A stretch of 64,000 nt of DNA, taken from an uncultured Latescibacterota bacterium (lineage in GTDB: Bacteria > Latescibacterota > UBA2968). Location: contig OX638329.1 in the NCBI GenBank assembly GCA_951812755.1, positions 6,003,107-6,067,106 of the forward strand, in the 5' to 3' direction. How positions within the stretch are numbered: position 1 is the first letter of the stretch; each line of letters begins with the position of its first letter. The notes beneath the pieces are model-generated. The model did not search any database and was not told the origin of the DNA. It saw only the letters and a program-made list of their open reading frames with translations. Made by a program: the position numbers and the translations under genes. This document shows positions 7,517 through 26,060 of this stretch, one piece after another.

Positions 7517-9352
7517 ATGAAAACAGAGCCAGACCAGGCGTCGGGTGTGCCGCATATTTTATTGACCAGCCTGGGGACCAGAGCTATTGCAACGAAATAC
7601 CAGTTGGATGACCGAACAGTTACCGCTTCGCTTACCCCGCTGGCGTTGGTGCAACTTCTTGACCCGTCGGAGCGGCCCAATCGCGTTGTCGCGATGGTCA
7701 CGGAAGGAGCCAGGGGTGAAACATGGGAACCCTTCAAAAATGGAATCTGTAAGACCCTCGATTTTGAACCCCAACTCATTTCGATACCCGATGGTAGTAG
7801 CAGCGAGGAAGTTCGTCAGATTCTCGAAAAGGTGGCTCAGGAAATTCCAGAAGGTGCAGAACTCACGCTTGATGTCACGCAGGGGATGAGACACTTCCCA
7901 TTCATCTTCTACGCACTGGTGCTCTACCTCACATCGCTTCGGAATGTAAAGGTTCGCGGTGCGTACTATGGGATGATCGAAGGAACTTCACAAGACTCGC
8001 CCAGACCCATCATTGATTTGCAGCCATTACTCGCATTGCCAGAGTGGTTCCATGCCGTGCGGGTGTTCCGTGATCAGGGGACGACCTCGGCAATGGCGCA
8101 ACTCCTTGAGCCGTTGGCAGAAAAATTGAAGCAGGAAACCGGGACACTGTTTAAGGCCGGGGATAAGAGTGCTGGTCAAAAATGTAGCGCGCAACTCAAG
8201 CAAGTTAAAGATGCTGTTGAGTTGCTGGAAAAGCATGCGTTTGCTTATGAGTCTGCCTTGCCACTGGAATTGGGAAAGGCCAGTTTGCGTCTCATTGATC
8301 CGATTAGGAAAATCGCTGGCATGGATACCGCCAATCTTCCACCGCTTTTTGCCGAGCTAACGGATACCATCGTTGACGTGGCAAAAAAAGCGACTTTTAC
8401 AAACCCGATACCCAACAAGGGGGTATGGAAACAAAACATCGGTTTGGATGAGAACGAGTTGAAGCGTCAAGCTCGTATGATTGATTTGTATCTGGACCGC
8501 GATCAACTCCCGCTGGCGGCTGGTCTGATGCGCGAGTGGGTAGTCTCCTGGCTCATCATGCAGCACTCAGACCAGCCCCAGGACTGGTTGAAGCATCCTG
8601 TACGCCAGAAATATGAGCGAAGGCTGGGTGCGCTTGGAGCATTAGAGAAAGATCCGTTCGTTACGCCAGAAGGTTCTGACGACATCTATCTCGAAGAAAA
8701 CGATTTTGGAGCATTAGAGAGAGATCCGTTCGTTACGCCGGAGCAGCGAGATTTCGGGAATTTCTGGAATCAACTGACACAACAGTTGCGAAATGCTCTG
8801 CACCACCATGCCATGCGCGAAGAGGCCCTCGAAGAGCCACCCAAACCCCTTGAAACGGTTCGGCATTTTTGGAATAAACTAAAAGCTGGAAAAATAGACC
8901 TGCCACAATTGGGCGGTGGTGGTGGCCGGCTGTTGCTTTCACCGCAGGGAACGCGACCGGGCGTATTGTTCTCAGCATTAAAGGTCGCCGAACCCGATAC
9001 CTGTCTGGTGATTTGTTCAGATGCGTCGGCGGATAGTATTCCCAATGCTGCCAGCCGTGCTGAATTTGAAGGTGACATTAGGCGGATCGAATTGGCAGAT
9101 CCACACGGCGGTTTTGCTGAAATTGATGCAGCAGCAGAACGTGTCCGTCGCGATCTGTTGAATGCCGATGAAGTCCTGGCCAATATGACCGGTGGTACCA
9201 CACTGATGGGCCTCGTTATCCAACGTCTGGTCGAAGAGGCACAAAAGCTGGACCGCACGGTGCAACGCTTTGCCCTCATTGATCGCCGTCCGCCCACCGA
9301 GCAAGACGGCGATCCGTTTGTGCAAAGCGACTGTCACTGGCTTGACGGCTGA
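7517..9352 (+). CDS. csx1: Csx1-like CARF-HEPN effector with an extra C-terminal CARF-like domain
   Basis: N-terminal ILLTSLGT and a DxTHG-type motif DVTQGMRHFP. HEPN-like RNALHH (R425). C-terminal LLLSPQGTRPG ... NMTGGTTLMG second CARF-like unit from about aa 470. Confidence 0.7.
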   Translation: MKTEPDQASGVPHILLTSLGTRAIATKYQLDDRTVTASLTPLALVQLLDPSERPNRVVAMVTEGARGETWEPFKNGICKTLDFEPQLISIPDGSSSEEVRQILEKVAQEIPEGAELTLDVTQGMRHFPFIFYALVLYLTSLRNVKVRGAYYGMIEGTSQDSPRPIIDLQPLLALPEWFHAVRVFRDQGTTSAMAQLLEPLAEKLKQETGTLFKAGDKSAGQKCSAQLKQVKDAVELLEKHAFAYESALPLELGKASLRLIDPIRKIAGMDTANLPPLFAELTDTIVDVAKKATFTNPIPNKGVWKQNIGLDENELKRQARMIDLYLDRDQLPLAAGLMREWVVSWLIMQHSDQPQDWLKHPVRQKYERRLGALGALEKDPFVTPEGSDDIYLEENDFGALERDPFVTPEQRDFGNFWNQLTQQLRNALHHHAMREEALEEPPKPLETVRHFWNKLKAGKIDLPQLGGGGGRLLLSPQGTRPGVLFSALKVAEPDTCLVICSDASADSIPNAASRAEFEGDIRRIELADPHGGFAEIDAAAERVRRDLLNADEVLANMTGGTTLMGLVIQRLVEEAQKLDRTVQRFALIDRRPPTEQDGDPFVQSDCHWLDG

Positions 9353-9370
9353 GTGAGATGAGAAGTTGAG

Positions 9371-9451
9371 AACCGCCTTGCAACTGTCTGAGAGAGAAGA
9401 AATAACACAGACGGGATCAGGCTGGACCACCAAACTATTGAGGTATTGAAC
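9371..9451 (+). repeat. Orphan leader-proximal fragment (45 nt) plus a solitary degenerate CRISPR repeat (36 nt)
   Basis: 9371-9415 versus 17944-17988 has 4 mismatches in 45. 9416-9451 versus the consensus repeat has 8 substitutions and 1 deletion. Confidence 0.75.
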
Positions 9452-9482
9452 CTCAAGATCAAATCAATGTAAGGAGTAAATT

Positions 9483-10115
9483 ATGAGCCAAGAATTGACA
9501 GAAAGCAAAATTAGACAGACCCTGGACTGGGCTTATGATAAAGCCGTAAATGGGATAGCAGGTTCTAAGACAGCACAACAATTTGCAGAAGATTATCTTT
9601 CCAAGAATGGTTCTCTGCATGATCAGGCAAACTCTCTTATTAGATGGCAGACCACAAAAGCAGGAACGTCAGGATTTTTGACAGGTCTTGGTGGCCTTCT
9701 TCTGATGCCAGTAACTATTCCTGCTGATCTTGCAAGCGTATTATATATCCAAATCAGAATGATTGCCGCGATTGCATATATGGGCGGGCATGACTTAAAA
9801 AATGATAAGGTGCGATCATTAGTCTATGTCTGTCTTGTAGGAAATTCTGCAAGAGAGATAATCAAAGACCTGGGAATCGTGCTTGGAACCAAACTGACAA
9901 CGCAAGCAATCAGAAAAATCTCAGGAAAAACCATTATTGCAATCAACCAGAGAGTTGGATTTCGGCTACTGACAAAGTTTGGAGAGAAAGGTGTGGTTAA
10001 TTTGGGAAAAACTGTTCCACTTGCCGGTGGTGTTGTGGGAGCTATTGCTGATTCAGTGCCTACCAAAATAATTGGCAACGTAGCGAGAGACACCTTTATT
10101 GGATCGAAAGCATAG
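9483..10115 (+). CDS. EcsC-family protein
   Basis: AAGGAG RBS. TKAGTSGFLTGLGGLLLMPVTIPADL, IQIRMIAAIAYMGGHDL and GFRLLTKFGEKGVVNLGKTVPLAGGVVG match my recollection of the EcsC family pattern. Confidence 0.65.
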   Translation: MSQELTESKIRQTLDWAYDKAVNGIAGSKTAQQFAEDYLSKNGSLHDQANSLIRWQTTKAGTSGFLTGLGGLLLMPVTIPADLASVLYIQIRMIAAIAYMGGHDLKNDKVRSLVYVCLVGNSAREIIKDLGIVLGTKLTTQAIRKISGKTIIAINQRVGFRLLTKFGEKGVVNLGKTVPLAGGVVGAIADSVPTKIIGNVARDTFIGSKA

Positions 10116-10242
10116 CAGTCTATTTCAATAATTATGCGGGATTGTATCTACATTTACCTGTCATTATTTATTTGTCATTCCAATTCAGTTCCTAACCATT
10201 CCTAACTACTGACCTCTCGCCCTTATAGGTAGTATGCATGGG

Positions 10243-10272
10243 AATGATTTGCAAAGTAATGATTTGCAAAGT
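10243..10272 (+). promoter_or_regulatory. Perfect 15-bp tandem direct repeat (AATGATTTGCAAAGT x2), each with a TTTGCAAA palindrome. Candidate operator in front of csm1.
   Basis: Read directly from the sequence. It ends 22 nt before the csm1 ATG. Confidence 0.35.
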
Positions 10273-10293
10273 GTTGAAAGGAGAGCCAGCAAG

Positions 10294-12675
10294 ATGGCTG
10301 AACGAGATGCTTTAATTTTGGGTGCTCTGTTGCACGATATAGGGAAGTTTTGGCAGCGGTCAGGTATCCGCAGAAAGCATGAACACCTGGGAGCAGAATT
10401 TTTGGATTTGCCAGTGATTCGAAACAAGATCGAAACACTGGTTGACCTTCGAGATGTTCAAAACATCATTTCTGAACACCATGAATCGGGTGTATATGAT
10501 GTGCTGGTTCGCATAGCTCAGGTTGCTGACCGTCTTGCTTCTGGCGAACGCCGTGCCCTGGGAGAGGGCCAAACGCAGACGCCGTGGGAGGAGCCGTTGA
10601 AATCCGTTTTCGCACAGATTTACGACCAGGAAAAGGGACTTTCAAAAGCATCTTATCCCACGCAAAAGCTATCGCTAAATAGGGAAACCATCTTTCCACG
10701 CGAAAATGTGCGCCCGGATTACGACAGCCTTTGGCAAGAATTTTTGGATGAAGCAGAGCAACTGCCGAGTGGAGATTTTGAGATATTTTTTGAATCCCTT
10801 TTTTACCTCCTAAAAAAATATACATGGTGTGTACCCAGTGCAGCATACAGGGACCACGCGGATATTTCGCTGTTTGATCACAGCAAGGTGACAGCAGCCA
10901 TTGCGTGGTGTCTCTATGAGTTGCGCGATCGGTTAGAACCTGTGGAACAGTTTGTATCGAACCGCGGAGGAAACGGAACAGCACCAGTCGCACTTCTCGT
11001 TGGTGGCGATATTTCAGGCATTCAATCATTCATCTATTCGATTTCTTCAGATGGTGCCGCAAAGAGCCTGCGCGGACGCTCTGTCTTTCTCAATCTGCTG
11101 AGTGATGCAGTTATGGAATACGCAATACAACAGTTGGGAAATCCACCCATCTGCAACTTGCTCTACAGTAGTGGGGGCCATTTCTATTTTTTAACTTCTG
11201 TTGACCAGTTGGAAAACGTAAAGCGCGTTAAAAAAGAAATTTCAGAGTGCCTTTTTGACGCTTTTGGAACTGAAATTTATTGTGGACTTGAAGCCGTGAG
11301 CCTTGCAGCTATAGATTTCCAGCGCGAAGCGGGCAATCGGGAAGGCAAGCTCAATATTGGAGACCGATGGAAAGAATTGATGGAAAAACTCGGGATGTGT
11401 AAACGACAAAAATTTGGCGATCTGATGCCTGAGCGATTTGATGATTTCTTTGAGCCTGTGGGTAGCGGTAAGGTGGATGATGTTTGCACGGTTTGCCATG
11501 TTGAAATATCGCAAGCAACTCGACGCACAATAGCAGAACGTACAGAGGACGATTCAGTTGTATGTTCGCTTTGCCACAGTTTTGAGCGACTGGGAGATGA
11601 TGTAAGGAAAGCAAAGTATCTGATGACCCGTGATGTTTCGCCCCAGAAATTTCGGGTGATAACGTGGGGGCGTGCCCTTGAAGGATTAGGACGCCGTTAT
11701 CAGTTTTCGCCTGATTTGGAGTCGAATTGGGATCGTGCCTATACGCTGGACAATACGGAGTTTTTGTCGGTTGGCGCACAGGGATTTCGTTTTGTAGGCA
11801 ACGCCGCCCCTATTGACAAAAAAACCAGCCATGTACGGGACTTCAGCGACCTCGCTGACGCCTCAAAAGGGATTCCCCGCTGGGGTTTGTTGAGGATGGA
11901 TATTGATAACCTGGGCAAAATATTCAGTGAGGGACTGGGCAAGGATTTGTCTCTCTCACGTATCACAACCTTGAGTTCAATGGTCTCGTTGTTCTTTGAA
12001 GGGTATGTGAATACGCTCTGTAAAGATACCGACCCAGACCGATTGTATGTGATCTATACAGGAGGCGATGATTCATTCATCGTTGGATCGTGGGATGCCG
12101 CGCTTGATTTCGTACAGAAATTGCAAATGGATTTTCAAAATTACACCTGTGACAATCCAAAAGTAACGCTCTCGGCTGCTCTGACGCTTGAAGCCCGGAA
12201 ATATCCGCTCTATAAAGCCGCAGACCGTTGCGGTGAGTGGCTGGACCTGGCAAAAGATCAAAAAGATGATGTCCGAGGTCTTGAGAAATCCAGCTTTACA
12301 TTTCTCGGACAACCGATATTCTGGCATGATTTTGAGCCTATTGAACAGATGAAACATGTGATCGTCAATCTGGTGAGCGATGGCGGACGTAGCTTGCTTC
12401 AGCGACTCATGTCAGCCTACAAACTGTATGAAGAAAACAAGCAACACTTGTCATCCCAATCATTGAGCCGAGATAAGTTGAACCGGCTGGTTCAAAATGA
12501 TCGGTGGCGGTGGCAACTGGCTTACAGTCTGGCCAGAGAAGCAGAGAGGTCAAAGTCACAGCGAAAGGAGGGTTTAAAGCACCTCCAAACCATGATTTTT
12601 AATCAAAATTTCATCGAATTTCTACACATTGCGACCCGATGGTCCGAACTGGCAACACGAAAACAAGGAGAGTGA
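10294..12675 (+). CDS. csm1: Cas10/Csm1 with N-terminal HD domain (type III-A)
   Basis: RBS AAAGGAGAG. HD motifs LHDIGKF and SEHHE. LLVGGDISGIQSFIY, SSGGHFYFL, LLRMDIDNLGKIF, IYTGGDDSFIVGSWD. Confidence 0.92.
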   Translation: MAERDALILGALLHDIGKFWQRSGIRRKHEHLGAEFLDLPVIRNKIETLVDLRDVQNIISEHHESGVYDVLVRIAQVADRLASGERRALGEGQTQTPWEEPLKSVFAQIYDQEKGLSKASYPTQKLSLNRETIFPRENVRPDYDSLWQEFLDEAEQLPSGDFEIFFESLFYLLKKYTWCVPSAAYRDHADISLFDHSKVTAAIAWCLYELRDRLEPVEQFVSNRGGNGTAPVALLVGGDISGIQSFIYSISSDGAAKSLRGRSVFLNLLSDAVMEYAIQQLGNPPICNLLYSSGGHFYFLTSVDQLENVKRVKKEISECLFDAFGTEIYCGLEAVSLAAIDFQREAGNREGKLNIGDRWKELMEKLGMCKRQKFGDLMPERFDDFFEPVGSGKVDDVCTVCHVEISQATRRTIAERTEDDSVVCSLCHSFERLGDDVRKAKYLMTRDVSPQKFRVITWGRALEGLGRRYQFSPDLESNWDRAYTLDNTEFLSVGAQGFRFVGNAAPIDKKTSHVRDFSDLADASKGIPRWGLLRMDIDNLGKIFSEGLGKDLSLSRITTLSSMVSLFFEGYVNTLCKDTDPDRLYVIYTGGDDSFIVGSWDAALDFVQKLQMDFQNYTCDNPKVTLSAALTLEARKYPLYKAADRCGEWLDLAKDQKDDVRGLEKSSFTFLGQPIFWHDFEPIEQMKHVIVNLVSDGGRSLLQRLMSAYKLYEENKQHLSSQSLSRDKLNRLVQNDRWRWQLAYSLAREAERSKSQRKEGLKHLQTMIFNQNFIEFLHIATRWSELATRKQGE

Positions 12676-12678
12676 GAT

Positions 12679-13137
12679 ATGGCAATGCACTGGAGGGATA
12701 TTGTGTCTGAGGATAGACAAAGAGGAAGAAAGAATTATTCACTAAACAAAAAAGGTGCGGAGCTGATTTCAAGCGTTATCAAACAAAAAGACCAGACAGA
12801 TAAACTGGTAGATATTGCAGAAACACTAGGCCGGTTTTTAGCGGAAGGTTATAACGAGGCAATTACAACATCCCAAATCCGAAATGTTTTTGGCGAAGTT
12901 CGAAAGACCGAGATGGAATGGAAACGGGACTCTGAAGCAAGTTGGGTACGCTTACAACTTCTGCGTCCTAAACTGGCATATACAGCAAAAAAAGATAATA
13001 AAGCTCGAGCGATTATTTTTCGAGACGTGCTTTCTACTGCTATACTCAATGTTGAGGGCAACTCCGAAAATTTTCAACGATTTGTCAATCTTTTTGAAGC
13101 AATTCTCGCTTACCATCGCGCATCCGGTGGAAGATAA
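12679..13137 (+). CDS. csm2: Csm2 (Cas11 small subunit)
   Basis: 152-aa helical protein with TTSQIRNVFGEV, positioned between csm1 and csm3. Confidence 0.8.
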   Translation: MAMHWRDIVSEDRQRGRKNYSLNKKGAELISSVIKQKDQTDKLVDIAETLGRFLAEGYNEAITTSQIRNVFGEVRKTEMEWKRDSEASWVRLQLLRPKLAYTAKKDNKARAIIFRDVLSTAILNVEGNSENFQRFVNLFEAILAYHRASGGR

Positions 13138-13158
13138 AAAACGAATAGGAGCAATACT

Positions 13159-13992
13159 ATGAACACATTGGATTTTTTTCAGAATTGGCAAGGCAAAGTG
13201 ATGATTTCAGGTTGTTTGGAAGCAGTCACGGGCCTCCACATTGGAGGATCGGAGACGGGTATCGAAATCGGTGGTGTGGATAATATCATTATTCGACAAC
13301 AGTCAGATGGTCGCCCCTATATTCCGGGCAGTTCGCTCAAGGGAAAGATGAGAAGCCTGACTGAACGGGCGCACAATAAGAGGCTTATTGAAGTAGTGCG
13401 TGGACGCAACCCTATTCGGCAGCATCAATGCGATGATAACGAACCTGAAGTCTGCGAGGTCTGCAAAGTATTTGGCTTGCCGGGACAACGGAGGAACAGC
13501 CAGCCCACTCGATTAATCGTGCGAGATGGCAAGCTACTGGACGAGTTATATGTTACAGAGCCAAACGGTAAACGAAATCTTCGAAACTGGGATGATTCCA
13601 ATGTGGATACAGACATGCCGTTCTCCGAGGTAAAAAACGAGGTTGCCATTGATCGGATTACGTCAGCCGCAATGCCGCGTCCGGTTGAGCGCGTGCCCGC
13701 AGGTGCTCGGTTCAGTTATGACATGGTATTCGATATTTTTGAAGATGCGGACAAAGATCATTTGGGCCTTGTCTTTGAAAGTATGCGCCTACTGGAAAAC
13801 GACTACCTCGGTGGATATGGTTCGCGCGGTTCGGGACAAATTCGTTTTGAGTCCGTCAAAATCACCTGGCGATCTAAAACCGATTATCGGTCAGGTGGTA
13901 GTGGCACAGTGGTTGGCGATAATCTGGATTTGAGTGAAATAGCAGAAAAATTTGAAACAGAGATCAAGACCAAACTGAACGGAGTGGCGTGA
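13159..13992 (+). CDS. csm3: Csm3 (Cas7)
   Basis: LHIGGS, YIPGSSLKGKMRS, CEVCKVFG, AIDRITSAA, GGYGSRGSGQIRF. Confidence 0.9.
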   Translation: MNTLDFFQNWQGKVMISGCLEAVTGLHIGGSETGIEIGGVDNIIIRQQSDGRPYIPGSSLKGKMRSLTERAHNKRLIEVVRGRNPIRQHQCDDNEPEVCEVCKVFGLPGQRRNSQPTRLIVRDGKLLDELYVTEPNGKRNLRNWDDSNVDTDMPFSEVKNEVAIDRITSAAMPRPVERVPAGARFSYDMVFDIFEDADKDHLGLVFESMRLLENDYLGGYGSRGSGQIRFESVKITWRSKTDYRSGGSGTVVGDNLDLSEIAEKFETEIKTKLNGVA

Positions 13993-15014
13993 TGGATGTA
14001 TCTTATCTGCTGGTACGCCTTCAACCGCTCGCGCCGTTTCATCTTGGGAAACGGGGCATCGGTTTGGAGGAGACAGAGACATTTGTGCATGCAGATACCC
14101 TGTTTAGCGCGCTGTGCAATGTCTGGGTGCGCTGTTTTGGTCGAGACGATCTTGAGAATCGGTTCTTGCCATCGGTAGAAACCAGTGAAAATGGCTCACT
14201 TTTCCAAATTTCATCAGCGTACCCCTATGCCAATGATGTGCTATTTTTTCCCAAACCGCTTTCGCCTTTGCCTGTGCAAAATGTCGATTCCAAAAAACTC
14301 AAGCACTGCCGGTTTATTTCAGAACAGATTTTCAGGGATCTAATTCATGGACGCGAAATTGTCCCGGCTTCGCAGGATAGGATATTCTGGTTATCGCAAG
14401 CAGAGCAAGATACGCACGCACAATTTGACGATCAGTTTCATATCTGGCAGGAAACAGAAGTCCCTCGTGTATCACTGGATCGCGTAACGCAGGCGTCTAA
14501 CATCTTTTATTTTAGCCAAGTGACATTCGCAGAGGGATGTGGTCTATTTTTTTTGGTGAATCTGGATGCATCTTTGAGACCCGATTTTGAGATGGCTATT
14601 CGCGTCCTTGGTGATACAGGCATTGGTGGAGACCGCACGGCAGGATACGGTCAATTTGAACCCCAATTCTCGAAATTCACGCTGAATATCCCTGATAACG
14701 CTTCTCAAGCCGTAACCTTATCGCTTTTGTCTCCTCGAAACCGGGCGGAACTCTCAAATTATCTCGGAGAACAGAGTGCGTACGAACTGATTCGGCGCGA
14801 TGGATGGATTGATTCTCCAGATGGGCGGAACTACAGGCGGCGTGCCTGCCTGATGTTTGCGGAAGGTAGTGTGATAAACCGATCTGAAAATGGCATGATG
14901 GGACGGCTTGTGGATGTGACGCCAACGGCTCCTGAAGTACAGTTGACACACTCGGTTTATAGATACGGCATTGGATTCCCCGTACCGATTTGCCTGCGAG
15001 AGGAAGGTGTTTGA
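13992..15014 (+). CDS. csm4: Csm4 (Cas5-family RAMP)
   Basis: TGATG overlap with csm3. LAPFHLGKRG ... HADTLFSALCNVW N-terminus. GIGGDRTAGYGQF G-rich loop. Confidence 0.85.
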   Translation: MDVSYLLVRLQPLAPFHLGKRGIGLEETETFVHADTLFSALCNVWVRCFGRDDLENRFLPSVETSENGSLFQISSAYPYANDVLFFPKPLSPLPVQNVDSKKLKHCRFISEQIFRDLIHGREIVPASQDRIFWLSQAEQDTHAQFDDQFHIWQETEVPRVSLDRVTQASNIFYFSQVTFAEGCGLFFLVNLDASLRPDFEMAIRVLGDTGIGGDRTAGYGQFEPQFSKFTLNIPDNASQAVTLSLLSPRNRAELSNYLGEQSAYELIRRDGWIDSPDGRNYRRRACLMFAEGSVINRSENGMMGRLVDVTPTAPEVQLTHSVYRYGIGFPVPICLREEGV

Positions 15015-15015
15015 T

Positions 15016-16305
15016 ATGGCTAATGCAGTAAAAAAATACCGCGTAAAAGTTCTGACACCTGTTCATATCGGCACTGGAGAAGAACTACAAGAAAACCTGG
15101 ATTTTTACGTCAAGAATAATCGAGTTCGCGTACTGGATTTTGACCGTTTGATAGTGGCGTGTGAACAGGCTGGTATTGATCCAATGCCTTATGTTGAAGA
15201 AGGTCGTCTGGATAATTTGTTCAATTCCAGCGCAGTGTCGCAACCCAAACCAGATATTGATCCTCGCTGGGCCAAGCTGGCTGCTTTGCAAACCGGGAAT
15301 CAAGCCCAGGCGCAATTAGAGATAGATGACGGACTTGCTTATCAAGCACAGATTCAGGCCGTAAATAGACCGCAGACTATTTTGTCTCAGATCAAAACGG
15401 CCTCATCGCTGGGGTATATCCCGGGAAGTTCGGTTAAAGGAGCAATACGAACTATTTTGGCACGCCATTTGATGAACGACGACGCTGTGCGGTCTCAAGT
15501 GGCAAGGCAACTCCGTGACCAGGGTCCCAGAGCATGGCAGCGACGAGCAGGGCAAGATATGGAAAAGAAATTATTTGGTCGCAATCCCAATTATGATCTC
15601 GGTCGAGTAATTCAGGTGACAGATGTGGGTCCCGGTGCGCGTGTTCAGGTGACAGAAGTACTGATCGCTGACATGGATCGAAACGAACGACTTCGCTGGA
15701 AAAACCTGAGCAATCATCGCATTGTGAGCGACCCGAGACAAGGTACTTCAATTTTTTGCGAATGCCTGCCTGTGGGCATGGAACTTCTTACAGAGATTCG
15801 GATTGATCAGTGGTTGCTGGAACATCGAGCACTTGGATTTAATACCCATCGCGACCTGATATTGCAGTTCGAATCCCTATGCCGCGCCCAGGCCAAATCA
15901 CATCTGGAAAGAGAAACTATGTTTTTCCGAAAAGGGGGCATGAATGACCTGTCTTCTTTCTGCGAAAAGCAATTGCTGCCTCTAACAGAAACAGATTCAG
16001 GGTTCATACTTCGCGTGGGATGGGGCACAGGATGGGAAGACAAAACAGCCGGGGATAATCTGGATACTTCTCTAAAAGAAAATTTGCGACGCTGGTATGA
16101 GTTGGGTAAAATGGTGCATAAGGGATGTAATGGAGATGTAAACAGGTGGAGGGGCAGTTATTCATGCAGGCGATGTCGAAAAAACAAACTTACAGTATCT
16201 CAAATTGACCTGATCTCTCCATTTCCAAAAACGCGGAAAATTGCATTTGCAAACCAAAAGCCAGCCTACCCAATGGGATGGTTGGCTTTTGAAGCCATTT
16301 CTTAG
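15016..16305 (+). CDS. csm5: Csm5 (Cas7-like RAMP)
   Basis: LTPVHIGTGEEL, YIPGSSVKGAIRT, VGWGTGWEDKT. Position after csm4. Confidence 0.8.
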   Translation: MANAVKKYRVKVLTPVHIGTGEELQENLDFYVKNNRVRVLDFDRLIVACEQAGIDPMPYVEEGRLDNLFNSSAVSQPKPDIDPRWAKLAALQTGNQAQAQLEIDDGLAYQAQIQAVNRPQTILSQIKTASSLGYIPGSSVKGAIRTILARHLMNDDAVRSQVARQLRDQGPRAWQRRAGQDMEKKLFGRNPNYDLGRVIQVTDVGPGARVQVTEVLIADMDRNERLRWKNLSNHRIVSDPRQGTSIFCECLPVGMELLTEIRIDQWLLEHRALGFNTHRDLILQFESLCRAQAKSHLERETMFFRKGGMNDLSSFCEKQLLPLTETDSGFILRVGWGTGWEDKTAGDNLDTSLKENLRRWYELGKMVHKGCNGDVNRWRGSYSCRRCRKNKLTVSQIDLISPFPKTRKIAFANQKPAYPMGWLAFEAIS

Positions 16306-16337
16306 CTCAAAGTAGTTTATACAAGGACTGACACTTT

Positions 16338-16406
16338 ATGGCACATTTACTTATCACCACCGTTGGCATGTCTCTGCTGCCAAGTCCAAAGCGTTCTTAT
16401 AGGTGA
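16338..16406 (+). pseudogene. 22-codon remnant resembling a CARF-protein N-terminus
   Basis: MAHLLITTVGMSLLPS... with an AAGGA RBS. It parallels HTLLCTVGTSLLYP of the intact CARF gene 42 nt downstream, in another frame. Confidence 0.3.
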
Positions 16407-16447
16407 AATTTTCTATCCCAGTATTTTCAAGTGAAAGAGATTATCTT

Positions 16448-17575
16448 ATGCCTAAGCCTCACACACTTCTCTGCACTGTAGGAACCAGTCTGTTATATCC
16501 CAACTTATCTGGTCTCGTGCAGGCACCGCAGTCTGATCCAATTCAGGCGGCTTTGGCCGATGCTTTTTCCAAAAAGAATTGGTCAGAGGTAGCGATACAG
16601 CTACAAAAACTTGCGCCAACGGAGCGGCTTTGCGGTGCAGAGATCAACTCTGTAACAGACCTCCTCAAGCAGGGATTTATTGAACAAGTCCATCTCCATC
16701 TGCTCCATTCTGATACAGATGATGGACAGGTAATCGCGGAAATTTTGCAATTCTATTTTAAAGAGGATGGTTGGCAAGTAACGACCCATTGCGTGGAGGG
16801 CTTGCGCGACGATGACCCTCGCGCTTTCCGCACGCATGGCTTACGCAATCTGGCAAAAATCTTTGGAGAACGGGTGCGTGAAACTGGGACAGACTTTTGC
16901 GCGATTAACGCCACAGGCGGCTATAAAGCCCAGATCGCCATTGCCGTTCTGATGGGTCAAGCACTCGACATTCCAGTGTATTACAAGCATGAACGCTTTG
17001 ATGCCATTATCCCGTTTCCGCCTATGCCTGTGGCACTCGATTTTTCGATCTGGCAGCGGGCCAGCGGCATGTTTATGGTCCTCAGCAAGGAGGGTATTGT
17101 TCCCTGGGAGCAGTATCGTGAAGAATGGGATGAACGCTTTGAGACACTGGTCAACCGCGAGGAAATCGACGGCGAGGACTATCTGGAACTCTCCGCGACG
17201 GGTCAGATATTTCACGAGACCTTCCGAACCCGTTTTCAGCAGATAAAGGCTACCAGCCTACCGAGACCAGCAACAAAGAATGAGAAGCACGCACCCAATT
17301 TGGGCAACCATGGATACGGACAAGCGCGCACCCCCATTTTGCGGTTCCTGCAAAAACTCACAGATGAGATGCCTTACGTCCGATTTTGCCACTCAACGTA
17401 TTGGAACCCGGACCTGCCTGAATCGTCTCGGTTTCGGTCATCGGGCGAAGAAATCCAGGGCATATACTCCAACGGAACCTGGTGCGTGAAATTTAAGGTG
17501 CATACAACAACAGATGACCAGGATGTATTACCCGGCATTGTGGCTGATCTCAATGACTGGATAGAGGAAGTCTAA
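16448..17575 (+). CDS. CARF-domain protein (APE2256/Csm6-type CARF) with an unassigned C-terminal domain
   Basis: LLCTVGTSLL, CGAEINS, LLHSDTDDG, INATGGYKAQIAIAV. The last 150 aa or so have no clear Rx4-6H HEPN motif. Confidence 0.75.
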   Translation: MPKPHTLLCTVGTSLLYPNLSGLVQAPQSDPIQAALADAFSKKNWSEVAIQLQKLAPTERLCGAEINSVTDLLKQGFIEQVHLHLLHSDTDDGQVIAEILQFYFKEDGWQVTTHCVEGLRDDDPRAFRTHGLRNLAKIFGERVRETGTDFCAINATGGYKAQIAIAVLMGQALDIPVYYKHERFDAIIPFPPMPVALDFSIWQRASGMFMVLSKEGIVPWEQYREEWDERFETLVNREEIDGEDYLELSATGQIFHETFRTRFQQIKATSLPRPATKNEKHAPNLGNHGYGQARTPILRFLQKLTDEMPYVRFCHSTYWNPDLPESSRFRSSGEEIQGIYSNGTWCVKFKVHTTTDDQDVLPGIVADLNDWIEEV

Positions 17576-17684
17576 AAGAGAGTTCGCATGCGTCTGGCCT
17601 CTCTTGCCGGCCAACAGTCTCCCTACCGCCGGCGCGATCAAGAAACGTCTAAAAGAGAGTTCGCATGCGTCTGGCCTCTCTTGC
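17570..17684 (+). repeat. Two identical 38-nt direct repeats separated by 39 nt (77-nt period), each with an AAGAGAG/CTCTCTT stem
   Basis: GTCTAAAAGAGAGTTCGCATGCGTCTGGCCTCTCTTGC at 17570-17607 and 17647-17684. The first copy overlaps the CARF gene stop codon. Confidence 0.7.
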
Positions 17685-17988
17685 TTCAATGCAAAATAAG
17701 CACCTGTTTGGCAGGTTGCAGACTAATTCAAGCCAATAGATGCGACCCAGATGCATCTCTCAATGTCACACTGGCAGCTTGAGCGTGTAGCGAACAACGC
17801 GCGTGAGGATTAGAGGCATTTCCTCATGTTCTGGTGGGTCGCAAATTTCTAACTTTTTGCAGGAGTGTGTATTATGAACAGAGAATTGAATGCAGTTTTT
17901 CATTTTTGGGAGGATTTTGAGTGTCAAAATGGCCTGAGTCGCAAACCGCCTTGTAACTGTCTGCGAGAGAGGAAATAACACAGACGGT
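17685..17988 (+). promoter_or_regulatory. CRISPR leader. Candidate promoter TTCTAA-17 nt-TATTAT at 17847-17875.
   Basis: Non-coding stretch upstream of repeat 1. Orientation is set by the ATTGAAAC repeat 3' end and by the degenerate terminal repeat at the far end. The promoter is a weak motif match only. Confidence 0.45.
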
Positions 17989-20900
17989 ATCAGGAAGGAT
18001 TACCCGACTACTGGGGTATTGAAACTGGGGAAGTATCTCGTTCCACGATCTTTTCACTTCTATCAGGAAGGATTACCCGACTACTGGGGTATTGAAACAT
18101 AAGCGTCTTTGACAGCTTATGCTGAAAATCGCGTCTCTTGATCAGGAAGGATTACCCGACTACTGGGGTATTGAAACTTGAACACGCAGTAGCCAACGCC
18201 AATGGTGAGCAAGGTATCAGGAAGGATTACCCGACTACTGGGGTATTGAAACTTCCAAAGACTGTCTGTTATGAGGTCGCTTTCCTCTCGCATCAGGAAG
18301 GATTACCCGACTACTGGGGTATTGAAACCATTGCCACCATTATCAACACTTCCTGTCAATTGCACCTATCAGGAAGGATTACCCGACTACTGGGGTATTG
18401 AAACCTGTAAACACACCCATATAATCCAAGATGTGTCTATATTCAATCAGGAAGGATTACCCGACTACTGGGGTATTGAAACTACTCGAAAGAACTGGAT
18501 ATTATCACCGAAAATTGCCACCTATCAGGAAGGATTACCCGACTACTGGGGTATTGAAACTTGAAGTCCCAATACAACACCTTCGAGAAAAGAGATAGAT
18601 CAGGAAGGATTACCCGACTACTGGGGTATTGAAACTTGAATAGCCTAATTCTAGACGACTCTGCAAAGTTTGGTAATCAGGAAGGATTACCCGACTACTG
18701 GGGTATTGAAACGTTCTTGCATCTTACGTAGAGCTTTATCCTGCTCAACAATCAGGAAGGATTACCCGACTACTGGGGTATTGAAACTTTTTCAACTCCG
18801 CTTCAATTTCTTTGCGGATTTTCGATCAGGAAGGATTACCCGACTACTGGGGTATTGAAACTCAATATGTGCGCTTAATACTAAAACATCCGTTCCGTTA
18901 TCAGGAAGGATTACCCGACTACTGGGGTATTGAAACTTACGTGCAGCGCGCTTCTTCATAATAGCCATGGTAACACCTCCATCAGGAAGGATTACCCGAC
19001 TACTGGGGTATTGAAACTTTCTGATATAGCTTCCACCACCATACGCAACTTTTTTTATCAGGAAGGATTACCCGACTACTGGGGTATTGAAACGATTTGA
19101 CCACGACAATAGCAGTTATTGCCTTGGAGAGCAGATCAGGAAGGATTACCCGACTACTGGGGTATTGAAACCTGTCGGGCGGTGCGTTCATCAACCGCGA
19201 TCATCGGGATATCAGGAAGGATTACCCGACTACTGGGGTATTGAAACTAATCGAATTCTTCGTATAGATGTTCGGCATGGGTGAAAAATCAGGAAGGATT
19301 ACCCGACTACTGGGGTATTGAAACTAACGTCTGCTCTACACCAACAAACCAACTTCTTACCAGCAAATCAGGAAGGATTACCCGACTACTGGGGTATTGA
19401 AACCATTCAGCCACTGCACGGAATGGCGGGATCTTCCGGGCCTATCAGGAAGGATTACCCGACTACTGGGGTATTGAAACTTTTCCGTAAGGGTTGTTGT
19501 CTTTTATCCACATGTGTCAATATCAGGAAGGATTACCCGACTACTGGGGTATTGAAACCTGTCGGGCGGTGCGTTCATCAACCGCGATCATCGGGATATC
19601 AGGAAGGATTACCCGACTACTGGGGTATTGAAACTTCTTGGATTTCTCCGTTATCCCATCTCCATAAAAATCAGGAAGGATTACCCGACTACTGGGGTAT
19701 TGAAACGAAGATTGTGGTCAGTTGTGGGAAGACAGTATTGATCAGGAAGGATTACCCGACTACTGGGGTATTGAAACCAATGATGGGTTCGGCAGAAAGG
19801 GCGACCATCTTGAGAGAATCAGGAAGGATTACCCGACTACTGGGGTATTGAAACCTGTCCATATCAGCGCAAGCATGGAGGACTCGAAAATTAATCAGGA
19901 AGGATTACCCGACTGCTGGGGTATTGAAACTTGAGCATTGCACGAACGTGAGCACCAATACGAACATTTGATCAGGAAGGATTACCCGACTACTGGGGTA
20001 TTGAAACTTGACAGCCTCGCGCCGAGTTGGTTCGAAATTCTCCGCGTGAATCAGGAAGGATTACCCGACTACTGGGGTATTGAAACCTCTATCCCAGTGC
20101 CGTCAATCCATTCCAGACCTATTCATCAGGAAGGATTACCCGACTACTGGGGTATTGAAACTTTCGGCATGTTGTCACCTTCGGGGTAATCCTGAAAGCT
20201 GATCAGGAAGGATTACCCGACTACTGGGGTATTGAAACTTGGTACGTTTTGCATAAGCCCGTCATAATACAAGTATTTATTAGGAAGGATTACCCGACTA
20301 CTGGGGTATTGAAACTGTTCGGTTTGTTCGTCTTGTTCGTCCAATATGTCAAAAAATCAGGAAGGATTACCCGACTACTGGGGTATTGAAACTTTCGCCA
20401 AAACGTATCTTTGTACTGTCATTTTCAAATCAGGAAGGATTACCCGACTACTGGGGTATTGAAACTATACAACGTCGTGGTCAATCGCCCAGACCTTTAT
20501 CTGTCCATATCAGGAAGGATTACCCGACTACTGGGGTATTGAAACTTAAACTCTGCCAGTAAAAAACCAGATCGGCTACGCGAAATCAGGAAGGATTACC
20601 CGACTACTGGGGTATTGAAACTTCTTACATAAAGGATCATTACAACCTCCAAAATTATGCCCATCAGGAAGGATTACCCGACTACTGGGGTATTGAAACC
20701 ATTTTCTGGTGACGATGTATATATCTCGATATACGGAAATCAGGAAGGATTACCCGACTACTGGGGTATTGAAACTTATCCGTCTGCTTGATAATTTTCC
20801 CTTTTGAAACGAAGGATCAGGAAGGATTACCCGACTACTGGGGTATTGAAACTTCGATCATCTCACTCGCCTCTGTAGATGTCAAAACCAATCAGGAAGG

Positions 20901-21909
20901 ATTACCCGACTACTGGGGTATTGAAACTCGCAAATATCGATATGGTGAATATCCGTCAGATAATCAGGAAGGATTACCCGACTACTGGGGTATTGAAACA
21001 GATAGATTGTGGTGCTACTCGCCTACCTATGTTGACTGGATCAGGAAGGATTACCCGACTACTGGGGTATTGAAACTTGTGAGTTTTGGAGTCAAAGGCT
21101 TCCACATCCACAAACATCAGGAAGGATTACCCGACTACTGGGGTATTGAAACCATTCGTTCCGCTAAACATACTGATGAGGTTACATATCAGGAAGGATT
21201 ACCCGACTACTGGGGTATTGAAACTTATTGCCCTGACCAACAGCATCTTCATGAGCAACCATCAGGAAGGATTACCCGACTACTGGGGTATTGAAACGAG
21301 ATAAAGCCGTCTCCTGCGCCATTATTCCAAAACAATCAGGAAGGATTACCCGACTACTGGGGTATTGAAACCTCAAATGCAAGGTCAAAATCATAATATG
21401 CGTCATCAATATCAAATCAGGAAGGATTACCCGACTACTGGGGTATTGAAACTTCTTACTCGCTACCCAACCCCACAACTCTTCACTAAATCAGGAAGGA
21501 TTACCCGACTACTGGGGTATTGAGACTGGTTAGGCGACGGAGAGAAAAGAGCAAAGGAATCAGCATCAGGAAGGATTACCCGACTACTGGGGTATTGAGA
21601 CGTTTCGGGCATTTCGCGTTCAATCTCAAACTCCACTTTATCAGGAAGGATTACCCGACTACTGGGGTATTGAGACACAAATGACAAGTAACCCACCATA
21701 AAACCAACTAACGAAAATCAGGAAGGATTACCCGACTACTGGGGTATTGAAACTTCAACTGCATCAATTCTTTTGTGAGATGTCCCAAAACGACGCTCAT
21801 CAGGAAGGATTACCCGACTACTGGGGTATTGAAACATATCTCCGGAAATCTTCTTGGAGCAGATAGAACCGGTATCAGGAAGGATTACCCGACTACTGGG
21901 GTATTGAAC
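17989..21909 (+). CRISPR. CRISPR array with 52 repeats of 37 nt (ATCAGGAAGGATTACCCGACTACTGGGGTATTGAAAC) and 51 spacers of 34-45 nt
   Basis: Repeats counted by hand (periods 71-82 nt). Variants: 19894 (A>G), 20279 (C>T), 21490/21565/21640 (ATTGAGAC). The terminal repeat at 21874-21909 lacks one A. Confidence 0.97.
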
Positions 21910-22186
21910 AGGCCATTTTTGTGGTTGTACTTGTATTGTAGCCGGAGACTCTCTATCTTTTGAACACATCGTGACGAGTGGAAAACCGCTCTGATCCATC
22001 TGCTAATACTAATCAGATATAGCAATCTTGCATCAGGTTCTCGAAACTGGGTAATCGCGGCAGGGATGCCGCTCCCACAGTAAGCGAGTTGTAGGAGGGA
22101 AATCCTTTTCCCGACTCTGCGACAGCTTGAGCAGGCAACAGACCATGCATAGTTAATTCTTACGATTGGTATAAGCTATCAAGGAG

Positions 22187-22456
22187 ATGCCAATGAACGA
22201 GCTAATATTAAGCGGATTTGACAAAGAATTAACCGATAGAATCCGGCATTTCGCAAACCAGGAGGGTATTTCGCTGAATCAAGCCGCGCTGAGACTTCTG
22301 CGCGTTGGAGCCGATCTCAAGCAATCAAAGGATAGCGGAGACACAGTTGGATCTTCCCTGGACCATCTAATTGGAACCTGGACGCTTGAGGAAGCCGAGG
22401 AATTGAATAATGCTGTGAAAGAATTTGAACAAATTGACGAGTCTATGTGGAAATGA
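22187..22456 (+). CDS. vapB: Ribbon-helix-helix antitoxin (VapB-like)
   Basis: 89 aa. ELTDRIRHFANQEGISLNQAALRLL RHH-like N-terminus. Stop overlaps the start of the PIN gene (ATGA). Confidence 0.65.
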   Translation: MPMNELILSGFDKELTDRIRHFANQEGISLNQAALRLLRVGADLKQSKDSGDTVGSSLDHLIGTWTLEEAEELNNAVKEFEQIDESMWK

Positions 22457-22761
22457 AGATTCTCCTTGACACCAATGCGTATTCACATCTGAAGCGAGGG
22501 CATCGCAGGGTTGCGGAGTTGGTACGCATGTCCGAGGAAATTTTCCTGTCGGCCATTATCATTGGCGAGTTGCTCTACGGCTTTCGGCAAGGCTCTCGCA
22601 TTGACCGTAATATTGAAGAACTTAAAGCCTTCCTCAACAACCCCTATGTCACATTTGTACCTATAAGTTTCACAACAGCCGAACATTACGCGCAGATTGC
22701 AATGTCGTTGAGAACCAAAGGGCGTCCCATCCCGTCGAACGACATTTGGGGGATTATGTAG
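22453..22761 (+). CDS. vapC: PIN-domain VapC toxin, apparently 3'-truncated
   Basis: MKILLDTNAY ... IIGELLYG ... PIPSNDIWGIM-stop. It ends where full-length VapCs continue (NDxWIAA...), so the last roughly 30 aa, including the final acidic residue, are missing. Confidence 0.65.
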   Translation: MKILLDTNAYSHLKRGHRRVAELVRMSEEIFLSAIIIGELLYGFRQGSRIDRNIEELKAFLNNPYVTFVPISFTTAEHYAQIAMSLRTKGRPIPSNDIWGIM

Positions 22762-25557: not shown

Positions 25558-25689
25558 TAGTGCATCGTGGCGTAAGTAATGCCCCATATAGAAGTGAACA
25601 GCAAAACCGTCTGGATTGCGGCTTTAAGCGTGCCGCAATGACAATCGCAAGTAAAATTGATATGACCAGATTCTTTTGCCGAGATGCAC
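25558..25689 (+). repeat. Dispersed repeat family A unit (about 110-130 bp, core GGATTGCGGCnnAAnnnnTGCCGCAATGAC hairpin)
   Basis: Near-identical units at 27678-27919 (two tandem). Core-only copies at 25819-25861, 29256-29296, 39631 and 39739. Confidence 0.7.
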
Positions 25690-25962: not shown

Positions 25963-26060
25963 TTGACCTAAAAATTAAAATTGCTAAAAAGAGTAACGTA
26001 AGCCACAGGTGCCCCCCGCATGTGGTTATATTTTTCTCAAAAAAAGAAAGGAATCTCCCC

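What the first reader, a model, noticed from the sequence alone, without database searches (positions are those of the whole stretch)
9371..9451. Orphan leader fragment plus solitary degenerate repeat between the two type III modules; together with the real leader it brackets an 8.5-kb ecsC-csm cassette
nt 9371-9415 match the 45 nt immediately upstream of repeat 1 of the main array (17944-17988) with 4 mismatches. 9416-9451 is a decayed copy of the 37-nt repeat with 8 substitutions and 1 deletion. The 5' ATCAGG and the 3' ATTGAA-C handle region are kept, while the TACCC/GGGTA stem is weakened. The unit ends 31 nt before the ATG of the EcsC-family gene. With the genuine leader and repeat 1 it forms a direct repeat around the whole ecsC + csm1-5 + CARF block. 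Three readings are possible. (a) It is a collapsed array that once served the III-D-like module. (b) It is a recombination scar from capture of the III-A cassette at a leader-repeat junction. (c) It is a repeat-like RNA element still recognised by Cas6 that defines or regulates the 5' end of the ecsC-csm transcript. Only the repeat-proximal leader part is duplicated, not the candidate promoter.
Basis: partly seen in the sequence, partly recalled or inferred. Interest (0 to 1): 0.75.

Follow-up and report, generated by a model that had tools for sequence, protein, structure and literature searches.

The report
Vestigial CRISPR leader plus decayed repeat
The 82 bases are the leftover stump of a CRISPR array that once followed the upstream gene, now joined to a small defence-candidate gene that carries a CRISPR repeat in front of it in related genomes; this is mostly an ordinary relic, with one unexplained conserved hairpin.

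Summary
Window 9371-9452 aligns without gaps to 17944-18025 (leader end plus repeat 1): 69/82 identical, blastn E=2e-21.

Three related contigs show where it came from. There the Csx1-like CARF-HEPN gene (window 7517-9352) is followed by a leader of about 255-300 nt and a full array of the same repeat. The window keeps that gene's 3' end and stop, has lost about 275 nt of leader including the candidate promoter, and retains about 52 nt of leader plus one decayed repeat. This is a collapsed array.

The decayed repeat is tied to the EcsC-family gene (PADLOC candidate PDC-S29), not to the csm block. A repeat sits 31-35 nt before that gene's ATG in three other contigs: one with the window's own upstream context, one behind csm6, and one at the distal end of a 67-repeat array.

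One relative lacks csm1-5 and the CARF gene but keeps ecsC and both leader copies. Its deletion endpoints are not the direct repeats.

Cas6 use is unsupported: the stem is lost, no cas6 is in the window, and cas1 is truncated with cas2 absent. A 7-bp hairpin across the repeat/UTR junction persists in three lineages with two compensatory changes. This is suggestive but not significant.

The parts
7517..9352 (+). Csx1/Csm6-like CARF-HEPN-CARF gene, the native upstream partner of the leader
   Evidence: It matches NCBIfam TIGR02221 and PADLOC CARF_HEPN_CARF at E=1.6e-137. Homologs at 82-86% identity in L085, L086 and L087 are each followed by a full leader and array.
9364..9415 (+). Leader remnant: the last ~52 nt of a ~310-nt leader, with about 275 nt deleted between the CARF stop and this point
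   Evidence: In alignment A4 the window shares the CARF 3' end and stop with L085 and L087, then skips about 275 nt of their leader. It is 41/45 identical to 17944-17988. Substitutions TTGTAA>TTGCAA and the junction T>G hit positions invariant in 7 true leaders.
9416..9452 (+). Solitary decayed repeat, 9 of 37 positions changed
   Evidence: The canonical hairpin is lost. The sequence is identical in L001.
9438..9456 (+). Hairpin TTGAGGT-ATTGA-ACCTCAA, spanning the 3' half of the decayed repeat and the first 4 nt of the ecsC 5'UTR
   Evidence: Its energy is -8.1 kcal/mol, in the 5% tail of 203 repeat+spacer controls. Equivalent hairpins occur in L002 (-8.0) and L003 (-7.5) but at no other repeat-gene junction. 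All 7 pairs are paired in every cell and 2 pairs changed on both sides, but 49 of 500 shuffles reach this.
9453..9482 (+). ecsC 5'UTR with Shine-Dalgarno AAGGAG at 9471-9476. It is shared only with the CRISPR-linked ecsC copies
   Evidence: Alignments A2 and A5. Homology with the non-CRISPR copy L004 starts only about 11 nt before the ATG.
9483..10115 (+). EcsC-family gene, which matches the PADLOC defence candidate PDC-S29. It is the cargo gene that carries a repeat at its 5' edge
   Evidence: It matches Pfam PF12787 and PADLOC PDC-S29 at E=1.5e-87. It is about 70% identical across many phyla, and only 1 of 80 GTDB loci has an array nearby.
10234..17575 (+). Type III-A block: csm1 (start probably 10294), csm2, csm3, csm4, csm5 and a Cas_APE2256 CARF7 gene. 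It can be lost independently
   Evidence: Family matches are. The block is absent from L001, apart from the last ~37 nt of the CARF gene. Called homologs are 793 aa.
17680..17988 (+). True leader of the main array. Its last 45 nt are the copy matched by the orphan
   Evidence: It is homologous over about 300 nt to the leaders of L085 and L087. The last 60 nt are compared across 7 loci.
17989..21910 (+). Main array: 53 repeats of ATCAGGAAGGATTACCCGACTACTGGGGTATTGAAAC
   Evidence: No spacers are shared with the arrays of L001-L003 or L085-L087.

Best explanation
The element is the vestige of a leader-repeat 1 junction. The array belonged to the Csx1-like CARF-HEPN gene at 7517-9352.

Shown:
- In three related loci this gene is followed by a leader of about 255-300 nt and a full array of the same repeat family.
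- In the window about 275 nt of that leader, including the candidate promoter, are deleted. Only the last ~52 nt and a single repeat remain.

Inferred:
- The window once held two CRISPR-Cas loci of one repeat family in tandem. Locus 1 was III-D + CARF-HEPN + leader + array 1. Locus 2 is csm1-5 + CARF7 + leader + the present array.
- Array 1 carried the EcsC-family (PDC-S29) gene as a repeat-flanked cargo unit at its far end, as seen in L002.
- Recombination between repeat 1 and the repeat in front of ecsC removed all spacers. That left leader stump - one repeat - ecsC.
- The two 'direct repeats' are therefore the leaders of two neighbouring loci, not the ends of a mobile ecsC-csm cassette.

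Present function:
- As a CRISPR part it is most likely dead. It has no promoter of its own, no canonical Cas6 stem, an altered leader-repeat junction, and has gained no spacer. The local cas1 is truncated and cas2 is missing.
- It is probably transcribed by read-through from the III-D/CARF operon as part of the ecsC 5'UTR.
- The only candidate for a retained role is the 7-bp hairpin formed by its 3' half with the first UTR bases. This could stabilise the ecsC message or hide the 8-nt handle and cleavage site from crRNA processing. That role is inferred, not shown.
For: 1. Origin. In L085, L086 and L087 the CARF-HEPN homolog (82-86% identity) is followed by the conserved 45-mer, 254-297 nt after its stop, then the array. 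Alignment A4 shows the window sharing the gene's 3' end and stop, then a gap of about 275 nt, then the leader end.
2. The repeat goes with ecsC. A repeat sits at the same offset before the ATG in L001, L002 and L003, with three different upstream neighbours. In L002 ecsC lies between two repeats at the distal end of a 67-repeat array. In L003 a truncated repeat (ATCGGGAAGGAT) follows ecsC at the same offset. No leader homology lies upstream of the L002 or L003 units.
3. The csm block is separable. L001 lacks window ~10148-17537 and keeps the last ~37 nt of the CARF7 gene.
4. Repeat-mediated recombination is active in this lineage. The arrays of L085 and L086 are mosaics of repeat variants. The ecsC-linked repeat carries the loop variant of the other array type in both L002 and L003.
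5. It is dead as a CRISPR part:
   - the stem is lost;
   - substitutions fall at invariant leader positions;
   - no sigma-70-like promoter is found;
   - no cas6 or cas2 is found, and cas1 is reduced to aa 232-333 fused to a PrimPol gene;
   - the seven arrays share no spacers, yet the orphan is still one repeat in both the window and L001.
6. Base rate. Standalone repeat-like sequences occur in 39-44% of III-A and III-D loci and were judged to be degraded repeats (PMC10120712).
Against: - The order of events (tandem loci, then collapse) is a reconstruction from four ecsC-bearing contigs. No intermediate with III-D + CARF + full array + distal ecsC was found.
- The decayed repeat and leader stump differ at only 1 of 82 positions between the window and L001. 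Their CARF genes differ by 18-19%, and ecsC third positions by 10.5% (p=0.007 against all third positions). This could mean constraint.
- The first 152 nt of ecsC are also identical, so the effect may be regional (p=0.59 against adjacent third positions).
- The junction hairpin is kept in three lineages with two compensatory changes. A pure relic does not predict that.
- In relatives the CARF-HEPN gene follows a csm module, so 'served the III-D module' is an assumption.
Confidence: 0.7

Rival explanations
1. Recombination scar from capture of a whole ecsC + csm1-5 + CARF + leader unit at the leader-repeat junction of a pre-existing CARF-HEPN-leader-array locus. This is Campbell-type or double crossover between repeats. 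The two leader-repeat copies would then be the ends of the inserted DNA.
For: - The join lies inside a repeat, and direct leader-repeat copies flank the block.
- The window's csm1 is only 30% identical to the csm1 that precedes the CARF-HEPN gene in L086, so it is a different lineage that could have been imported.
- Arrays in this lineage are recombination mosaics.
Against: - ecsC and csm do not behave as one unit. L001 has ecsC without csm. L002 has the same csm/CARF7 type with ecsC placed after the array. L003 has ecsC behind a different csm module.
- The L001 deletion endpoints are not the direct repeats.
- No variant lacking 9452-17943 was found.
Confidence: 0.15
2. Functional RNA element of the ecsC (and csm) transcript. 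The decayed repeat would be bound or cut by Cas6, or its junction hairpin would control the stability, translation or crRNP capture of the ecsC message. This would couple a cargo defence gene to crRNA biogenesis.
For: - A repeat keeps a fixed position 31-35 nt before the ATG in three architectures.
- The 3' ten bases (GTATTGAAAC) have 1 change in 20 across the two strongly decayed copies, against 19 in 54 elsewhere in the repeat (counted).
- The hairpin is specific to ecsC units, all cells are paired, and two pairs are compensatory.
- Only 1 of 82 positions differs between the window and L001.
- The L003 copy is nearly intact (3 mismatches, stem kept), so Cas6 would very likely cut it.
Against: - Linkage alone explains the fixed position if the unit moves by recombination at repeats.
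- The covariation rests on three independent sequences, and 49 of 500 shuffles reach it.
- The low divergence is regional.
- The canonical Cas6 stem is lost in the window and in L002.
- The hairpin would bury the expected cleavage site.
- No cas6 is in the window.
- The ecsC-linked repeat does not track the local array's repeat variant.
- The survey of type III loci found no conserved standalone repeats.
Confidence: 0.14
3. Chance resemblance or assembly artefact.
For: None beyond the fact that repeats can mislead assemblers.
Against: - The match has E=2e-21.
- The same orphan occurs, with 81 of 82 positions identical, in an independent metagenome contig (L001) whose flanking genes are only 81-96% identical.
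Confidence: 0.01

Closest known systems
Standalone repeat-like sequences and degraded mini-arrays in CRISPR-cas loci (Shmakov et al. 2023, PMC10120712)
   Same: It is a single, partly degraded repeat in an intergenic region of a type III locus, next to a cargo gene. That survey found such sequences in 39% of III-A and 44% of III-D loci and judged those of type III to be degraded, non-functional repeats.
   Different: This one still carries about 52 nt of leader, so its origin can be traced to a specific gene-leader junction. The repeat's position relative to one cargo gene is kept in three locus architectures, whereas the survey saw no positional conservation in type III loci.
Solitary repeat units (SRUs) of mobile elements, proposed to recombine with resident arrays (Faure et al. 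2019, as summarised in PMC8616872; Racrs, PMC10651486)
   Same: A lone repeat is attached to non-CRISPR DNA, and the unit appears at different places in arrays of the same repeat family. That fits recombination between the lone repeat and array repeats.
   Different: The carrier here is a single chromosomal defence-candidate gene, not a virus or plasmid. No matching repeat was found in IMG/VR. No anti-CRISPR role is indicated.
crRNA-like regulators: CreA/CreTA, CreR, scaRNA and type I mini-arrays
   Same: A degenerate repeat lies upstream of a cas or cargo gene within a CRISPR-cas locus.
   Different: There is no second repeat and no spacer-like segment with a target. The 30 nt after the repeat are simply the 5'UTR and Shine-Dalgarno of ecsC. 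Such regulators have not been reported for type III in the papers read.
Degenerate terminal repeats and array collapse by recombination between repeats (general knowledge)
   Same: Spacers are lost through repeat-repeat recombination and the surviving repeat drifts. Mosaic arrays in L085 and L086 show that this process operates in the lineage.
   Different: The collapse went down to a single repeat and was accompanied by a separate internal deletion of the leader.

Membership tests
Functional CRISPR leader-array unit | Full leader with promoter upstream of repeat 1 | tested here: not met
   About 275 nt of the ~310-nt leader are deleted relative to L085 and L087. No promoter-like site lies in 9000-9482 upstream of ecsC.
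Functional CRISPR leader-array unit | At least two repeats separated by a spacer, with turnover by adaptation | tested here: not met
   There is one repeat only, in both the window and L001. The seven full arrays share no spacers, so the full arrays turned over while the orphan did not.
Functional CRISPR leader-array unit | Conserved leader-repeat junction and repeat sequence | tested here: not met
   The junction T>G and TTGTAA>TTGCAA changes fall at positions invariant in 7 true leaders. The repeat is changed at 9 of 37 positions and its stem is lost.
Standalone degraded repeat (Shmakov et al. 2023 sense) | [quoted passage not shown] | tested here: inconclusive
   The repeat part is 28/37 identical and lies 8.5 kb from the array. 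Taken alone, the repeat part gives blastn matches of 39-45 nt at about 77% identity to other array repeats, E=4e-05 to 0.006. Its longest exact run is 9 nt. Whether this passes that paper's 16-bp criterion depends on how the criterion is read, which I did not check.
crRNA-like regulatory mini-array (CreA/CreR/crlRNA) | Two repeat-like units flanking a spacer-like segment | tested here: not met
   No second repeat follows. The next 37 nt of ecsC match the repeat at 13/37 (counted by eye from the sequence), near the chance level of about 9. They are coding sequence, also conserved in the non-CRISPR copies L004, L088 and L089.
crRNA-like regulatory mini-array (CreA/CreR/crlRNA) | Spacer-like segment partially complementary to a promoter or transcript in the locus | not tested
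   The segment after the repeat is the ecsC UTR itself. No separate search for targets of that segment was run.
Cas6 substrate | Repeat hairpin (TACCC/GGGTA) with the cleavage site at its 3' base, and a cognate Cas6 present | tested here: not met
   The canonical hairpin is not formed in the copy. The alternative hairpin covers the expected cut site. tblastn with the L086 Cas6 finds nothing in the window. Actual cleavage cannot be tested with these tools.
Type III-D module (upstream genes) | Csx10 and Csx19 together with several Csx7-like RAMPs and Cas10 | tested here: met
   Matches are Csx10 TIGR02674 at E=3.9e-43, Csx7 TIGR02581 at 1.3e-35, Csx19 TIGR03984 at 1e-4 (weak) and the Cas10 palm2 domain. 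Pfam Csx19 is called on the L001 ortholog.
Type III-A module (downstream genes) | Csm1 with HD and palm domains, plus Csm2, Csm3, Csm4 and Csm5 | tested here: met
   Pfam gives HD + Csm1_B + palm2, Csm2_III-A, RAMPs and Csm4_C.

The most novel reading that the evidence does not exclude
In this lineage CRISPR arrays act as a landing and shuffling platform for defence genes. Single genes such as the EcsC-family PDC-S29 candidate, a PIN toxin-antitoxin pair and others sit between repeats like oversized spacers. They move between array positions by repeat-guided recombination, or conceivably by integration through Cas1-Cas2 with the associated PrimPol. The repeat kept in front of ecsC, with its junction hairpin, would be a selected RNA element. 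It would tie expression of the cargo gene to transcription of the CRISPR locus while shielding the message from Cas6 and type III crRNP loading.
Probability: 0.12. Interest if true: 0.7.

Novelty: new member of a known kind. Interest (0 to 1): 0.3.

Why it matters
As a relic it matters little, because stray decayed repeats are common in type III loci. Its value is as a dated fossil. Because it still carries leader sequence, it shows how a composite III-D/III-A locus was assembled, by tandem loci, array collapse and independent loss of the csm block. It also shows that the direct repeats do not mark a mobile cassette. The more interesting by-product is that a widely transferred defence-candidate gene (PDC-S29/EcsC) and other small genes are embedded between repeats in these arrays. 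If the conserved junction hairpin proves functional, it would be a natural example of a cargo gene adapting to life inside a pre-crRNA transcript.

Tried and rejected
- Exact-product look-up of the window's ecsC found nothing on record. Look-ups of P0134 and P0243 also failed. As a result I could not see what precedes csm1 of the window type in another genome.
- The GTDB scan with an ecsC alignment returned 80 loci, all at 71% identity or less. Only one (L016) has an array within 10 kb. A test of covariation against other repeat families was therefore impossible, and ecsC is not generally CRISPR-linked.
- The JGI metagenome scan for the UTR plus start of ecsC gave one irrelevant hit.
- IMG/VR scans for the repeat gave 0 hits, and for the leader core gave 2 chance hits in phage coding sequence.
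- The plasmid database gave no match. Rfam gave no family for the orphan or for the true leader and repeats.
- A decayed repeat downstream of ecsC in the window and L001 is not significant (p=0.64 and 0.13).
- Leader homology upstream of the ecsC-linked repeats of L002 and L003 is not significant (p=0.4-0.9).
- Purifying selection on the orphan, judged from window versus L001 divergence, is inconclusive because the adjacent 152 nt of ecsC are also identical.
- ecsC homologs at 79-87% identity (L004, L088, L089) lie in non-CRISPR contexts without repeats.

Full report
**Observation.** Window 9371-9452 aligns without gaps to 17944-18025, which is the last 45 nt of the leader plus repeat 1 of the 53-repeat array. 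Overall 69 of 82 positions are identical: 41/45 in the leader part and 28/37 in the repeat part. blastn of 9340-9460 against the whole window gives one 83-nt hit at 84.3% identity, E=2e-21. The gene context is as described:
- a III-D module (Csx10, Csx7-like RAMPs, Csx19);
- a CARF gene at 7517-9352;
- the orphan;
- an EcsC-family gene at 9483-10115;
- csm1-5 and a Cas_APE2256 CARF gene at 16403-17575;
- the leader and the array at 17989-21910.

**Where the stump comes from.** The CARF gene at 7517-9352 is a Csx1/Csm6-like CARF-HEPN-CARF protein (PADLOC E=1.6e-137). Homologs at 82-86% identity were traced to three contigs, L085, L086 and L087. In all three the gene is followed directly by a full leader and an array of the same repeat family. 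The conserved 45-mer lies 254-297 nt after the stop codon, with 1-5 mismatches to the window's true leader. Alignment A4 shows the window sharing the gene's 3' end and stop with L085 and L087. It then skips about 275 nt of their leader and resumes about 52 nt before the repeat, at roughly 9364. The orphan is therefore what remains of this gene's own leader-repeat 1 junction, after an internal leader deletion and the loss of all spacers. In those relatives the gene sits behind a csm module, not behind III-D.

**What the decayed repeat is attached to.** The closest ecsC homologs led to four contigs.
- L001 (99% protein identity) has the same III-D + CARF + orphan + ecsC arrangement. ecsC is then followed, after about 500 nt, by the true leader and array. 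Window ~10148-17537 (csm1-5 and most of the CARF7 gene) is absent. The last ~37 nt of that CARF7 gene plus its stop survive, so L001 looks like a deletion derivative. Its deletion endpoints are not the direct repeats.
- L003 (90%) has csm1-5 and csm6, then a nearly intact repeat (3 mismatches), then ecsC. A truncated repeat (ATCGGGAAGGAT) follows 22 nt after the stop, and then come the leader and array.
- L002 (91%) has CARF7, the leader and a 67-repeat array. After 324 nt comes a strongly decayed repeat (11 mismatches), then ecsC, then a good repeat 18 nt after the stop, and then the terminal repeat and trailer.
- L004 (87%) and the 79-82% homologs (L088, L089) lie in non-CRISPR contexts and have no repeat.

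In every CRISPR-linked case the repeat ends 31-35 nt before the ATG, and the UTR is homologous. The repeat is therefore the 5' edge of a repeat-flanked ecsC unit, and it is independent of the csm block. No leader homology precedes the L002 or L003 units. The leader stump thus belongs to the CARF gene side and the 3' part of the repeat to the ecsC side, so the join lies within a repeat.

**What ecsC is.** The protein matches PADLOC's single-gene defence candidate PDC-S29 (E=1.5e-87). It is about 70% identical across Proteobacteria, Firmicutes, Bacteroidota and others. Of 80 GTDB loci only one has an array within 10 kb. It is a widely transferred cargo gene that entered CRISPR loci in this lineage only.

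**Reconstruction (inferred).** The window most simply descends from two tandem loci of one repeat family. Locus 1 was III-D + CARF-HEPN + leader + array 1, with a distal ecsC unit as in L002. Locus 2 is csm1-5 + CARF7 + leader + array. Recombination between repeat 1 and the ecsC-linked repeat collapsed array 1. Three observations show that recombination between repeats is active in this lineage:
- The L085 array is a mosaic of GACTACT-type and GCTTACT-type repeats, and the L086 array switches variant at its end.
- The ecsC-linked repeat carries the other array type's loop variant in both L002 and L003.
- A toxin-antitoxin pair in L086 is flanked by duplicated repeat-X-repeat units.

**Present function.** As a CRISPR part the element looks dead, for these reasons:
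- Most of the leader is gone, and no sigma-70-like site lies upstream of ecsC.
- Two substitutions shared by the window and L001 orphans (TTGTAA>TTGCAA and the junction T>G) hit positions invariant in seven true leaders.
- The canonical stem is lost.
- The seven full arrays share no spacer, so they turned over completely, yet the orphan is a single repeat in both the window and L001.
- tblastn with the L086 proteins finds no cas6 and no cas2 in the window. cas1 is reduced to residues 232-333, fused in frame to the first 423 residues of a TPR-PrimPol gene at 26022-27584.

The survey of Shmakov et al. found standalone repeat-like sequences in 39-44% of III-A and III-D loci and concluded that those of type III are degraded repeats (PMC10120712).

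**What a pure relic does not explain.**
- The 3' half of the repeat pairs with the first UTR bases: window TTGAGGT-ATTGA-ACCTCAA at -8.1 kcal/mol, L002 CTGGAGT/ACTTCAG at -8.0, and L003 CTGGGGT/GCTTCAG at -7.5. These values fall in the 5% tail of 203 ordinary repeat+spacer units, and the hairpin is absent from all other repeat-gene junctions. On alignment A5 all 26 cells pair and two pairs changed on both sides. With three independent sequences, however, 49 of 500 shuffles do as well.
- The orphan differs at 1 of 82 positions between the window and L001. The CARF 3' end differs by 18-19% and ecsC third positions by 10.5% (p=0.007). However, the first 152 nt of ecsC are also identical, so the tract may simply be young or locally conserved (p=0.59 against adjacent third positions, p=0.06 against flanking non-coding).

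I therefore keep an RNA role for the junction hairpin as a minority possibility. It could stabilise the message or mask the handle and cut site from crRNA processing.

**Verdict on the three readings.**
- (a) Collapsed array: supported, with the correction about which gene it belongs to.
- (b) Scar of capture of a III-A cassette: only partly supported. The join is at a repeat, but the unit joined there is ecsC, and the csm block comes and goes independently.
- (c) Element still recognised by Cas6: no support in the window, though it is plausible for the near-intact L003 copy.

**Novelty and interest.** This is a new, unusually well-traceable example of a known kind, a degraded standalone repeat in a type III locus. 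Interest is low to moderate. The repeat-flanked cargo genes in these arrays are the part worth following.

**Limits.** All comparisons rest on seven metagenomic contigs of one lineage. The taxon was not determined; a 61% CARF homolog is labelled Candidatus Poribacteria. No expression data exist, and the last contig look-ups failed.

Noticed in passing
window 26022-27584: This single ORF fuses TPR repeats and an AEP/PrimPol domain (PADLOC 'adaptation polymerase') to the last ~100 residues of Cas1. In L086 the orthologous place holds a 642-aa TPR-PrimPol gene, a complete cas1 and cas2. A deletion here removed the PrimPol C-terminus and Cas1 residues 1-231, and cas2 is absent. The adaptation module next to a 53-repeat array is therefore broken.
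   Followed up: partly
window 25689-25926: Stray repeats lie 3.8 kb beyond the array: a partial repeat at 25689-25704, a good copy at 25752-25788 (4 mismatches) and a decayed copy at 25890-25926 (11 mismatches). They are followed by a T-run and a TTGACA just upstream of the TPR-PrimPol gene. The same decayed variant (GAGCAYA..ATTATCCGCTTACTG..GTATTGAAAC) with the same upstream flank also sits in front of ecsC in L002, and a close relative of it forms the terminal repeat of the L002 array.
   Followed up: partly
window 22193-22749; L086 14086-15185: A small gene pair (87 aa plus a PIN-domain protein, here truncated to 99 of 132 residues) follows the array end. In L086 the pair is flanked on both sides by repeat - 38 nt - repeat units whose 38-nt 'spacers' are nearly identical and palindromic (GGGCGAGGCATGCCTCGCCC). 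It looks like a cargo gene cassette duplicated into the array.
   Followed up: partly
window 9483-10115: The EcsC-family protein matches the PADLOC defence candidate PDC-S29 over its full length (E=1.5e-87). It is about 70% identical across very distant phyla, which is unusual conservation for a 210-aa protein and fits frequent horizontal transfer. Only the copies at 90% identity or more are CRISPR-linked.
   Followed up: partly
window 25560-25670, 25800-25860, 27681-27893, 39631-39847: A family of roughly 100-nt repeated elements carries a hairpin core (CTGGATTGCGGCT..A..ATGCCGCAATGAC). Copies occur in tandem pairs and next to the stray CRISPR repeats, and also in L002 and L087. They resemble MITE or REP elements. 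Their nature was not examined.
   Followed up: no
L085 9741-11680; L086 12057-13102: These arrays are mosaics of repeat variants. L085 has 18 repeats with loop GACTACT, then 6 with GCTTACT, then 2 with GACTACT. L086 has 13 with GCTTATT, then 1 with GACTACT. This indicates recombination between arrays of related loci.
   Followed up: no
window 9353-9634 versus L001: This 280-nt tract covers the orphan, the UTR and the first 152 nt of ecsC. It has only 5 differences between the two genomes, and none at all in the 152 coding nt. The flanking CARF gene is 81-82% identical and the rest of ecsC about 95%. It is either a recent recombination tract or nucleotide-level constraint, and this is unresolved.
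   Followed up: partly
window 10104-10293: Called csm1 homologs are 793 aa, and tblastn homology starts at 10294. The real csm1 start is therefore probably 10294, not 10234, which leaves a 178-nt gap after ecsC. That gap contains the only promoter-like site near here (TCGAAA-17-AATAAT at 10104-10132), so csm may have its own promoter.
   Followed up: no
window 21490-21676 and 19130-19706: Three consecutive repeats near the trailer end share the variant ...TTGAGAC. Spacers 16 and 21 share a 16-mer, and TRF reports periods of 155 and 232. Both point to internal duplication within the array.
   Followed up: no
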